A stretch of DNA of 22,319 bases from a virus. Under the pieces are notes generated by a model. The model saw nothing but the letters and a program-made list of their open reading frames with translations. It searched no databases and was not told the origin of the DNA. The position numbers and the translations under genes are program-made. This document shows positions 13,847 through 14,665 of the stretch, piece by piece (positions within the stretch are counted from its first letter, which is position 1; every line of letters begins with the position of its first letter). The DNA is taken from IMG/VR virus record IMGVR_UViG_3300045988_130630. One strand, given 5' to 3'.

Positions 13847-13875
13847 ATTATAACATTATTTTTTTTATTTGTCAA
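13847..13875 (-). promoter_or_regulatory. Sigma70 consensus promoter TTGACA-N17-TATAAT
   Basis: -35 rc of 13870-13875, -10 rc of 13847-13852. Confidence 0.7.
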
Positions 13876-14665
13876 TTGAGTCCTCTTCCGCCTCGGAGAT
13901 AGGATTATTCTGCTTACTTGCTTGAACGGCTTTATCTATAACACGAGAGAATATAAATGCAGTTTCACAATAATGACATGTCCCTTGTCGTTGACAGCGC
14001 TGACCGCAATTGATGCGGTTGGGGCCAAAATCTTCGGGGATTCCACGATTATCTGCATTATAATTTAAATTAGTTAATAAAAGGTTTAGATTACCTTGCC
14101 AATGACCACTTTGATAGATATCCAAAAGCACAGCTTCTTTGGAGAGCGCGGGCTCGTCGAATTCTAAAGTTGAAACATATGTTCCATAATAATCTACATC
14201 TTCCGGTCGGACGTAGGAACCGCATATTCCATTTTCTCTTGGAAGATTATCGTCATAGCATTTATTCGCAATCATACGAATTGGGACTTTTGCTTGCTGA
14301 TTTAATTGTCTCAAATCAAATGTAAGCGGTGCTCCGATGAAAAGTTCGCTAACTCCAAGATCAAGGAGAACGCGGACTTCTGCCCATGTAGTAGCAGGAT
14401 AAGCGAAATAATATTTTACATCAATATTACATCCATTACGAGTAAGCATATCTTCAAATGCTATAATAAGATCGACTTTATCCTTAAATGAATCAATCTC
14501 TTCCCAATTCACTTCTTCATCTTTGCGGATTCTGATAATATATCGCTTATTGGGGAATTTCTAAATCATATCATACATAATGTTTATATCGTTATAATTA
14601 ACCATAAGCTCGTCAGCTTTCTCGCGGACAACATCAGGTTGACGCACAGAAACACAATATTTCAA
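13865..14665 (-). CDS. Hypothetical protein; long model starts at TTG 14665 and contains one in-frame TAG at 14561; short model starts at GTG 14512
   Basis: Strong RBS AAAGGAG 9 nt before the TTG at 14665, directly downstream of a perfect promoter; the frame is continuous with ORF 13865..14512 through the single TAG; no comparable RBS before the GTG at 14512. Confidence 0.65.

What the first reader, a model, noticed from the sequence alone, without database searches (positions are those of the whole stretch)
13865..14665. An early-region gene with a single TAG between its best start site and the TAG-free body
The best translation-initiation signal is AAAGGAG-N9-TTG at 14665, directly downstream of a perfect TTGACA-N17-TATAAT promoter. 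It is in frame with ORF 13865..14512, and the two are separated by one TAG at 14561-14563. The alternative GTG start at 14512 has no credible RBS and would leave a roughly 150-nt leader.

A single amber codon near the 5' end could make full-length expression depend on suppressor availability, which would act as a timing switch.
Basis: partly seen in the sequence, partly recalled or inferred. Interest (0 to 1): 0.6.

Follow-up and report, generated by a model that had tools for sequence, protein, structure and literature searches.

The report
Amber-gated gene in recoded gut phage
This is one intact phage gene whose 35th codon is a TAG "stop" that the phage reads as glutamine using its own suppressor tRNA; that is ordinary for stop-codon-recoded gut phages, but the TAG's position near the gene's start fits a wider pattern suggesting these codons hold translation back until the suppressor is available.

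Summary
On the minus strand there is a perfect TTGACA-N17-TATAAT promoter, AAAGGAG-N9-TTG (14665), one in-frame TAG (14563-14561) and a TAA stop (13867-13865).

About 100 homologs of 250-280 aa start at the equivalent of TTG 14665 (MKYCVSxRQ), and none starts at GTG 14512. Codons 2-34 evolve under strong purifying selection. A confident model puts barrel strands beta1-beta3 in the "extension".

The window comes from a roughly 160-200 kb TAG-to-Gln (code 15) gut phage:
- Sister lineages have CAA at codon 35.
- Across families, TAG aligns with Gln 12-fold above background.
- Near-identical contigs carry a tRNA(CUA) about 4 kb beyond the window.

The gene is therefore a single 266-codon ORF that needs amber suppression. 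This is a member of a known phenomenon (Borges et al.).

Two things go beyond it:
- This gene carries TAG in about half of 50 lineages, while its conserved neighbours almost never do.
- Sparse TAGs are 5'-biased: 14 of 15 single-TAG homologs have it within codons 8-35. This was replicated in an independent set, holds in 28 other families, and is absent at 3' ends.

That fits a translational gate or throttle, but timing itself is untested. The protein is an uncharacterised TIM barrel with a four-Cys motif.

The parts
14795..14823 (-). Intrinsic-terminator-like hairpin plus T-run after the upstream gene (14837-15253). It isolates the target gene's transcription unit.
   Evidence: 13-bp stem, T tail; sequence.
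14690..14718 (-). Perfect sigma-70-type promoter TTGACA-N17-TATAAT with an extended -10 TG. The inferred transcription start is near 14683, giving a leader of about 18 nt.
   Evidence: A promoter-like -10 element 16-40 nt upstream of the start recurs in divergent homolog loci.
14675..14681 (-). Shine-Dalgarno AAAGGAG, 9 nt upstream of the TTG start.
   Evidence: An AAGGAG-type SD is present in 38 of 42 lineage representatives.
13865..14665 (-). Single coding sequence of 266 sense codons (TTG start, TAG at codon 35 read as Gln, TAA stop). It encodes an uncharacterised TIM-barrel protein with an RPED motif and C-x3-C-x5-C-x2-C.
   Evidence: Homologs span the whole length. dN/dS is about 0 upstream of the TAG and 0.03-0.06 downstream. 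The AlphaFold model of 64%-identical P0003 has pLDDT 96.7.
14561..14563 (-). In-frame TAG (codon 35), decoded as glutamine. It is the proposed suppressor-dependent gate.
   Evidence: The codon is CAA in L010 and L002. The TAG is conserved in 22 other assemblies. TAG aligns with Gln family-wide and genome-wide.
14510..14512 (-). GTG (codon 52): the start that a standard-code ORF finder reports. It is not the real start.
   Evidence: It has no SD. No homolog starts here. Starting here would delete beta1-beta3.
13847..13875 (-). Second perfect TTGACA-N17-TATAAT promoter, overlapping the last codons of the target gene. It drives the TAG-free peptidase-like gene (13813-12707) independently of the target's translation.
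11052..11081 (-). Terminator-like hairpin ending the TAG-free block. TAG-rich structural genes begin just downstream, at 10966.

Best explanation
Positions 14665-13865 (minus strand) are one gene of 266 codons in a TAG-to-glutamine (genetic code 15) phage of roughly 160-200 kb from gut metagenomes.

A host-type consensus promoter and a strong SD site drive it. Ribosomes start at TTG 14665. At codon 35 (TAG), one of two things happens:
- host release factor 1 terminates translation, releasing a 34-residue peptide; or
- the phage's own tRNA(CUA) inserts Gln, and the full TIM-barrel protein is made.

The tRNA(CUA) is encoded about 18 kb downstream in the same orientation, just outside the window.

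Full-length protein therefore depends on, and scales with, suppressor activity. The TAG works as a 5'-proximal translational gate or throttle on this one gene, inside an otherwise standard-code block.

**Shown:** the gene model, TAG=Gln, the suppressor tRNA in near-identical genomes, gene-specific recurrence of TAG, and the 5' bias of TAG.

**Inferred:** competition with RF1, the order of events in time, and that the gate is selected for rather than merely tolerated.
For: **Gene model**
- About 100 homologs of 250-280 aa cover more than 90% of the read-through protein and begin MKYCVSxRQ.
- In L003-L135 the start codon aligns with TTG 14665.
- Codons 2-34 against L010 show 12 synonymous and 0 nonsynonymous differences.
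- The model (pLDDT 96.7) has beta1 at residues 2-6 and beta3 at 41-46.

**TAG = Gln**
- Codon 35 is CAA in L010 and L002.
- TAG occupies the near-invariant Q9 in 17 sequences and the invariant Q222 in 2.
- At 98 TAG sites across families, the TAG-free homolog has Gln in 34%, a 12-fold enrichment. No other residue is enriched more than 2-fold.
- In the recoded genes TAG replaces CAG.

**Suppressor**
- A tRNA with a CTA anticodon is present in all eight near-identical loci scanned (of L055-L065), about 4.2 kb past the window edge.
- It has an unpaired U1 and a G73 discriminator on two different scaffolds.

**Gate**
- TAG is present in this gene in 25 of 54 loci. The neighbours g239 (0/38), g138 (0/39) and the peptidase (0/52) never carry it.
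- TAG is enriched in the first 40 codons: OR 4.7, p=4e-7 over 50 lineages.
- 14 of 15 single-TAG genes have it within codons 8-35.
- The parsimony test gives p=0.0012.
- The independent replicate set gives OR 4.2, p=0.0018, and 7 of 7 single-TAG genes.
- The same 5' bias is seen in 28 other families (OR 3.3, p=4e-5), with none at 3' ends.
- The other 11 Gln codons of this gene are CAA or CAG, like the standard-code genes.
Against: - There are no expression, proteomic or tRNA-abundance data.
- The suppressor tRNA was found in 97-99%-identical contigs, not in the window itself.
- The tRNA array, including the cluster holding the tRNA(CUA), lies behind consensus host-type promoters. The suppressor may be made as early as this gene, which weakens a strict "late" reading.
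- About half of the lineages have no TAG in this gene, so the gate is dispensable.
- The 5' bias could reflect minimising the cost of abortive products rather than selection for regulation.
- Lineage independence in the statistics is approximate (80% clustering plus parsimony on an NJ tree).
- The protein's function is unknown, so no reason for gating it can be given.
Confidence: 0.7

Rival explanations
1. Neutral synonym. TAG is just another Gln codon in a gene that happens to be translated after the code switch. It has no regulatory role, and its place at codon 35 is an accident of a CAG/CAA-to-TAG mutation.
For: - L010 and L094 have CAA at codon 35, and about half of all lineages have no TAG in this gene.
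- TAG and CAA/CAG interchange among 97-98%-identical relatives at codons 123, 222 and 252.
- Column 35 is variable.
Against: Neutrality predicts TAG spread evenly over Gln codons.
- It is in fact 4-5-fold enriched in the first 40 codons. That holds in two independent sets and in other families, with no 3' enrichment.
- Q9 is TAG in 17 of 60 sequences, against 2 of 72 for the equally conserved Q222.
- Neutrality also does not explain why the adjacent peptidase gene never has TAG in 52 loci.
Confidence: 0.22
2. Two separate ORFs. A 34-codon leader peptide ends at the TAG, and the real protein starts at GTG 14512 by reinitiation or from an internal start.
For: This is what a standard-code ORF finder returns. 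Public gene calls for some relatives are truncated in the same way, for example P0002.
Against: - There is no SD site before GTG 14512.
- No homolog starts there.
- The reading frame is continuous, with CAA at that codon, in L010 and L002.
- The upstream codons have dN/dS of about 0.
- A protein starting at codon 52 would lack beta1-beta3 of the barrel.
Confidence: 0.02
3. Pseudogene, nonsense mutation or assembly error.
For: A single in-frame stop in an otherwise stop-free gene is what a fresh nonsense mutation looks like.
Against: - The same TAG is present in 22 other assemblies, spanning dS up to about 0.48.
- There is strong purifying selection on both sides of the TAG.
- The genome reads TAG as sense in many other genes.
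Confidence: 0.01
4. The TAG is read through but decoded as an amino acid other than Gln. The suppressor in the closest relatives is 90 nt long and sits next to tRNA-Tyr, which could hint at Tyr, or at Trp, Ile and others as predicted for some phage suppressors.
For: - The tRNA(CTA) in L055 has an unusual 17-nt insert in its variable region and lies about 570 nt upstream of tRNA-Tyr(GTA).
- Kienbeck et al. predict non-Gln isotypes for about 30% of phage suppressor tRNAs.
Against: - TAG aligns with Gln 12-fold above background, and with Tyr at 0.2-fold.
- TAG sits at the near-invariant Q9 and the invariant Q222.
- Among near-identical relatives TAG interchanges only with CAA/CAG.
- The insert in the L055 tRNA is unpaired, not a type-II variable arm. 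The L065 version is a 73-nt tRNA. Both have an unpaired U1 and G73.
Confidence: 0.04

Closest known systems
Genetic-code-15 (TAG-to-Gln) recoded gut phages and the "code switch" model (Borges et al., bioRxiv 10.1101/2021.08.26.457843; experimental validation in crAss-like phages by Peters et al., PMC9523058)
   Same: - In-frame TAG aligns with Gln.
- The phage encodes a tRNA(CUA).
- Stops are dominated by TAA.
- The genome is a mosaic of standard-code genes and TAG-rich structural genes.
- The proposed role is to hold back translation until the suppressor is present.
- Genome size (about 160-200 kb) is in the range of their large clades.
   Different: - Here the TAG sits in a gene inside the standard-code block, behind a consensus host-type promoter.
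- It is a single codon, 5'-proximal, in a non-structural, non-lysis protein.
- Those papers report which genes are preferentially recoded. I did not find any report of where within genes the codons fall.
- Membership in a named clade (Jade, Sapphire or Agate) was not tested.
Agate-phage group I intron homing endonuclease carrying in-frame TGA inside an early gene (Borges et al., section 8)
   Same: A single gene embedded in an early, standard-code context is thought to be kept untranslated until the code switch by in-frame recoded stops.
   Different: That case uses TGA-to-Trp and concerns a selfish endonuclease. The gene here is a conserved core-cluster gene of a whole phage group, and it uses TAG-to-Gln.
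Theta (HDV-like) ribozymes abutting phage suppressor tRNAs (Kienbeck et al., PMC10879173)
   Same: In the closest relatives the tRNA(CUA) is followed immediately by an HDV-like match (L055 16047-16101). That is the arrangement the paper describes.
   Different: The match is below threshold (26.1 bits against a gathering score of 44). It lies outside the window and was not tested further.
Classical amber conditional mutants with Gln-inserting suppressors (supE), and programmed UAG read-through such as Q-beta A1 or MuLV gag-pol (from my own knowledge)
   Same: Production of the full-length protein depends on a tRNA out-competing release factor at UAG.
   Different: Programmed read-through extends a protein past its normal stop, at low efficiency, using host tRNAs. 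Here the UAG is near the N-terminus of the only functional product, and the virus supplies the suppressor.

Membership tests
Code-15 (TAG-to-Gln) recoded phage gene | The in-frame TAG interrupts an ORF whose two parts are both homologous to one uninterrupted protein in relatives | tested here: met
   The reading frame is uninterrupted at this codon in L010 and L002.
Code-15 (TAG-to-Gln) recoded phage gene | TAG positions align preferentially with glutamine in homologs | tested here: met
   - The codon is CAA in sister lineages.
- TAG occupies Q9 and Q222.
- 33 of 98 TAG sites align with Q, a 12-fold enrichment.
Code-15 (TAG-to-Gln) recoded phage gene | Phage-encoded suppressor tRNA with a CUA anticodon | tested here: met
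   - Not in the window.
- Present in every near-identical contig scanned (eight of L055-L065), about 4.2 kb beyond the window edge.
- Its presence in the window's own genome is inferred.
Code-15 (TAG-to-Gln) recoded phage gene | TAG is not used as a terminator, and TAA dominates | tested here: met
   In the gene models, 22 genes end in TAA, one in TGA and none in TAG.
Code-15 (TAG-to-Gln) recoded phage gene | Direct evidence that Gln is inserted at TAG (a peptide) | not testable with these tools
   This needs metaproteomics. The predicted tryptic peptide is ADELMVNYNDINIMYDMIQK.
Suppressor-gated (timed) expression, as in the Borges model | The gene is transcribed independently of the code switch, from a host-type promoter | tested here: inconclusive
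   There is a perfect sigma-70 consensus promoter with an extended -10, and promoter-like elements are conserved in relatives. There are no transcript data.
Suppressor-gated (timed) expression, as in the Borges model | Full-length protein appears only after the suppressor accumulates | not testable with these tools
   This needs a time course of proteome and tRNA levels in an infected host, or reporter assays.
Suppressor-gated (timed) expression, as in the Borges model | A comparative signature that TAG placement is non-random, by gene and by position | tested here: met
   - Gene-specific: 25 of 54 loci, against 0 of 52 for the adjacent gene.
- 5' bias, replicated and also seen in other families.
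- No bias at 3' ends.
Theta-ribozyme-associated suppressor tRNA | An HDV-like ribozyme with its cleavage site abutting the tRNA 3' end | tested here: inconclusive
   L055 16047-16101 matches RF02682 at 26.1 bits (gathering score 44), E=0.017, and starts one base after the tRNA.
TIM (beta/alpha)8 barrel fold (the protein) | An alternating beta/alpha barrel with structural matches to known TIM barrels | tested here: met
   - The model has pLDDT 96.7.
- Foldseek gives TM 0.4-0.5.
U32 peptidase-like Fe-S TIM barrels (RlhA/TrhP/UbiU-UbiV); considered because of the barrel plus four Cys | A Peptidase_U32 sequence signature, or structural similarity clearly above generic TIM barrels | tested here: not met
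   - None of the 88 members hits it in Pfam.
- The Cys spacing, C-x3-C-x5-C-x2-C in the C-terminal part of the protein, differs.

The most novel reading that the evidence does not exclude
In this group of roughly 160-200 kb code-15 phages, TAG is not a free synonym of CAA/CAG. When a gene carries only one or two TAGs, selection places them within the first 40 or so codons. Ribosomes arriving before the suppressor is available, or without enough of it, then abort after a few residues instead of making long truncated proteins.

The gene in this finding would be a dedicated example: a conserved TIM-barrel, four-Cys enzyme in the standard-code cluster that has repeatedly gained a 5' gate codon. 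Codon 9 shows at least 10 gains or losses, and codon 35 is the site in the window's clade. Its flanking genes are kept TAG-free.

This would be the first within-gene positional evidence that recoded stops really do act as stops during part of the infection.
Probability: 0.4. Interest if true: 0.55.

Novelty: new member of a known kind. Interest (0 to 1): 0.4.

Why it matters
**Annotation.** Standard gene callers truncate this gene to 215 aa at a false GTG start, and public databases hold N-terminally truncated versions of its relatives. Reading TAG as Gln restores a complete, confidently folding TIM barrel.

**Concept.** The idea that recoded stop codons regulate phage gene expression is still a hypothesis built on which genes are recoded. 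The 5'-specific placement of sparse TAGs found here is an independent, sequence-only signature that termination at TAG matters in vivo. The evidence is the replicate set, the 28 other families and the clean 3'-end control.

**A testable case.** The gene has one TAG, a consensus promoter and a strong SD site. A reporter carrying codons 1-40 with TAG or CAA, with and without the phage tRNA(CUA), would test the model directly.

Tried and rejected
**Function of the protein**
- Pfam, PHROGs and NCBIfam gave no hit for the protein. Across 88 family members there was no recurrent Pfam signal.
- A profile search against PDB sequences found nothing.
- BFVD gave two uncharacterised viral proteins.
- The afdb50 library was unavailable.
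- I considered a U32-like Fe-S enzyme that might act on tRNA. This was not supported.

**Related genomes and host**
- megablast and tblastn against deposited phage genomes found no match.
- The genome-contig scan gave no usable host clue. The near-identical 164-kb contig labelled a Mollicutes MAG is evidently the phage itself.

**Suppressor tRNA**
- No suppressor tRNA lies inside the window or within 10 kb either side of the gene in relatives. It was found only after walking past the window edge.

**Other tests**
- The base after TAG (+4 context) might signal selection for efficient suppression. There was no signal in the target family, and only a weak excess of A in the window's structural genes.
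The model is therefore of the 64%-identical homolog P0003, not the window protein itself.

Full report
**1. Observation**

- TTGACA (14718-14713), 17 nt, TATAAT (14695-14690);
- AAAGGAG (14681-14675), 9 nt, TTG (14665);
- 34 sense codons, then TAG (14563-14561);
- 16 more codons to GTG (14512);
- an open frame to TAA (13867-13865).

The ORF lister returns the two pieces separately, 34 aa and 215 aa. The promoter scan scores the site 12/12 with an extended -10 TG. It also finds a terminator-like hairpin just upstream at 14823-14795. The window has six perfect TTGACA-N17-TATAAT sites, or seven sites allowing one mismatch. All are on the minus strand, against 0.55 expected.

**2. Context: a stop-codon-recoded phage**

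All genes lie on the minus strand, and there are 16 tRNA genes between 394 and 7615.

From 22279 down to 11085 there are 16 genes:
- They end in TAA, apart from one TGA.
- They contain 34 CAA, 42 CAG and a single in-frame TAG, which is the one in this finding.

Below the terminator at 11081-11052 the picture changes:
- Same-frame ORF fragments are joined by TAG.
- If TAG is read through, they become glycine-rich tail-fibre-like proteins, an HNH endonuclease and a GIY-YIG endonuclease.
- TAG supplies 21 of 48 Gln-type codons there, and CAG has almost vanished.

**3. Gene model**

*Homologs.* A search with the read-through protein found 104 homologs. Most are 250-280 aa and cover more than 90% of the query. 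In the alignments nearly all begin MKYCVSxRQ, matching TTG 14665. The TAG column holds Q in the two closest homologs.

*DNA of the closest relatives.*
- The 98% relative (L001) has TAG at the same codon, with synonymous changes around it. Its database protein had been called under code 15.
- The 66% relative (L002) has CAA at that codon. It carries its own TAG at codon 9, the near-invariant Gln of the RQ motif.

*Survey of loci.* Across 52 IMG/VR loci and 52 metagenome loci, the start codon (ATG, GTG or TTG) aligns with 14665. No homolog starts at the equivalent of 14512.

*Selection.* Codons 2-34 are under purifying selection:
- 12 synonymous and 0 nonsynonymous differences against L010;
- 3-4 synonymous and 0 nonsynonymous differences against TAG-bearing relatives;
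- downstream of the TAG, dN/dS is 0.03-0.06;
- the TAG35 clade spans dS up to about 0.48.

*Structure.* An AlphaFold model of the 64%-identical full-length homolog P0003 is very confident (pLDDT 96.7). It is a beta/alpha barrel with beta1 at residues 2-6, beta2 at 19-23, a helix at 24-36 and beta3 at 41-46. A protein starting at codon 52 would lack three barrel strands.

*Upstream signals.* An AAGGAG-type SD site is present in 38 of 42 lineage representatives. A -10 element 16-40 nt upstream of the start recurs across lineages.

**4. What TAG encodes**

Within the target family:
- TAG sits at the near-invariant Q9 in 17 of 78 sequences, and at the invariant CGQ-motif Q222 in 2.
- Among 97-98%-identical relatives, TAG interchanges only with CAA/CAG, at codons 35, 123, 222 and 252.

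Across all gene families in 1.5 Mb of related loci, the TAG-free homolog has Gln at 33 of 98 TAG sites. That is 12-fold above background. No other residue is enriched more than 2-fold, and Tyr is at 0.2-fold.

**5. The suppressor tRNA**

No tRNA with a CTA anticodon lies in the window or within 10 kb of the gene in relatives.

I walked past the window's low-coordinate edge, using the ATPase gene at 651-1790 as anchor. This reached contigs that are 97-99% identical to the window, including the contig that also holds L003. All eight of them that I scanned carry a tRNA(CTA) about 4.2 kb beyond the edge, in the same orientation, followed by tRNA-Tyr.

- It occurs on two different scaffolds within conserved flanks: 90 nt with an unpaired 17-nt insert in L055, and 73 nt in L065.
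- Both scaffolds have an unpaired U1 and G73. From my own knowledge, these are tRNA-Gln-like identity features.
- Immediately 3' of it is a sub-threshold HDV-like ribozyme match (26.1 bits, E=0.017). This fits the theta-ribozyme arrangement of Kienbeck et al..
- The nearest consensus promoter lies about 2 kb upstream, at the head of that tRNA cluster.

**6. Is the TAG placed non-randomly?**

*(a) By gene.* The gene belongs to a conserved cluster. The table gives the loci whose ortholog contains any in-frame TAG.

| Gene | Loci with TAG |
|---|---|
| g239 | 0/38 |
| DUF5052 | 0/14 |
| g452 | 1/16 |
| g534 | 2/49 |
| g138 | 0/39 |
| target | 25/54 |
| peptidase (next gene downstream) | 0/52 |
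| g484 | 10/49 |
| g101 | 3/49 |

*(b) By position, first set.* The first set has 29 representatives below 80% identity.
- TAG is about 5-fold enriched over CAA/CAG in the first 40 codons (p=1e-4).
- 7 of 8 single-TAG genes have it at codons 8-35.
- Q9 is TAG in 8 of 19, against 1 of 27 for Q222.
- Counted as parsimony events, 12 of 35 fall in the first 40 codons, against 17% expected (p=0.012).

*(c) Independent replicate.* This set has 20 metagenome lineages below 80% identity to the first set.
- OR 4.2, p=0.0018.
- 7 of 7 single-TAG genes have the TAG at codons 9-23.

*Combined over 50 lineages.*
- OR 4.7, p=4e-7.
- 14 of 15 single-TAG genes are 5'-proximal.
- Parsimony gives p=0.0012.
- Codon 9 shows at least 10 state changes.

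*(d) Generality.* TAG-containing ORFs of 28 other families were mapped onto TAG-free homologs.
- TAG is 3.3-fold enriched in the first 40 codons (p=4e-5).
- The effect is strongest for genes with one or two TAGs and not significant for genes with three or more.

*(e) 3'-end control.* The table gives TAG's share of Gln codons by region of the gene.

| Set | First 40 codons | Middle | Last 40 codons |
|---|---|---|---|
| Target family | 0.50 | 0.14 | 0.08 |
| Other families | 0.41 | 0.19 | 0.25 |

Only the 5' excess is significant.

*Caveats.* Lineage independence is approximate, and reference starts in (d) are heuristic.

**7. Mechanism**

*Shown:* this is one gene, TAG means Gln, and the phage group supplies a tRNA(CUA).

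*Inferred:*
- On a host with the standard code, release factor 1 competes at codon 35. Ribosomes then either release a 34-residue peptide or go on to make the full protein, and the yield tracks suppressor activity.
- The other 11 Gln codons in this gene are CAA or CAG, as in standard-code genes. By my own arithmetic, the probability of that at the 44% TAG share of the structural genes is about 0.002.
- Together with the gene-specific recurrence and the 5' bias, this favours a gate or throttle over neutral codon choice.
- The downstream peptidase gene has its own perfect promoter (13875-13847), which overlaps the target's last codons. Gating the target therefore need not affect the peptidase.
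- The tRNA array also sits behind consensus promoters. The delay may be a lag while the tRNA accumulates rather than a strict late switch.

**8. Comparison with what is known**

This matches the published model for code-15 gut phages:
- standard-code early genes;
- a phage suppressor tRNA;
- recoded late genes;
- preferential recoding at the gene level;
- even a homing endonuclease gated inside an early gene (Borges et al.).

Gln decoding has experimental support in crAss-like phages (Peters et al.). I found no statement about within-gene position of recoded codons in Borges et al., nor in three literature searches. That is absence of evidence in a limited library.

The finding itself is a new member of a known kind. 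The 5'-gate pattern is the part that might be new.

**9. The protein**

Conserved residues include R130, N134, R153-P-E-D156, Y184, W189, GNLN, DNR, R217 and C220/C224/C230/C233. The four-Cys motif could bind Zn or an Fe-S cluster. Its function is unknown, so why this gene is gated cannot be said.

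Noticed in passing
window 7545-7615 (-): ARAGORN calls this a "tRNA-???" with a 6-nt anticodon loop (cttcaa; the "anticodon" is tc here and tt in relatives). It scores 46 bits on the Rfam tRNA model. It is conserved as the first gene of the tRNA array in L003, L005, L006 and L055-L065. Its decoding role is unknown.
   Followed up: partly
window 2242-2292 (-): Sub-threshold match to the twister-P1 ribozyme (RF03160, 41.1 bits against a gathering score of 67.2; E=1.7e-6 over 8 kb). It keeps the conserved core but lacks the optional P3 stem. 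It lies inside the tRNA array and overlaps the doubtful ORF at 2285-2001.
   Followed up: partly
L055 15957-16101 (same contig as L003; about 4.2 kb beyond window position 1): An amber suppressor tRNA(CTA) is followed immediately by a weak HDV-like (theta-type) ribozyme match. Within identical flanks the tRNA body differs between relatives: 90 nt with a 17-nt unpaired insert in L055, and a different 73-nt scaffold in L065. This suggests the suppressor is replaced as a cassette.
   Followed up: partly
L063 16911-16990 and L065 16489-16568: Some close relatives also carry a tRNA with a TCA anticodon, which ARAGORN labels "SeC". It could be an opal suppressor in phages that otherwise look TAG-recoded.
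   Followed up: no
window 10966-2001 compared with 22279-11085: In TAG-rich genes CAG is almost absent (2 CAG, 25 CAA, 21 TAG), whereas standard-code genes use CAG freely (42 CAG, 34 CAA). TAG appears to have replaced CAG specifically, as C-to-T transitions would predict.
   Followed up: partly
window 607-579, 5139-5111, 6603-6575, 7686-7658, 19161-19133 (-): A near-identical promoter cassette, TTGACATTTT(A/T)(T/A)AAAAAAATA..TATATAAT, is repeated through the tRNA array and once in the standard-code block. It looks like a reused strong host-type promoter module.
   Followed up: partly
window 3339-4130 (-) and 6941-7477 (-): GIY-YIG and HNH homing-endonuclease-like genes sit among the tRNAs and themselves contain in-frame TAGs. 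The GIY-YIG segment (about 3341-4271) is missing from the closest contig (L003/L055), as expected for a mobile insertion.
   Followed up: partly
window 16947-15343, 13813-12707, 12857-11403 (-): The three large neighbours (534 aa, the M20/M28-like peptidase of 368 aa, and 484 aa) all end in Cys-rich CxxC zinc-ribbon-like tails, and the target has its own four-Cys motif. The cluster is conserved across the whole phage group. The listed TTG start of the 484-aa ORF overlaps the peptidase gene by 151 nt and is probably too far upstream.
   Followed up: no
L081 (CAMELE010000001.1, 163,874 bp): A public "MAG: uncultured Mollicutes bacterium" contig encodes a 98%-identical copy of the gene and aligns with the window at about 93% identity. 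It is almost certainly this phage's genome mis-binned as a bacterium.
   Followed up: partly
L004, L007-L012 compared with L003, L005, L006: Close relatives (97-98% protein identity for the target) differ in whether the tRNA array lies within 10 kb downstream of the gene. This indicates large rearrangements or insertions between the standard-code cluster and the tRNA array.
   Followed up: no
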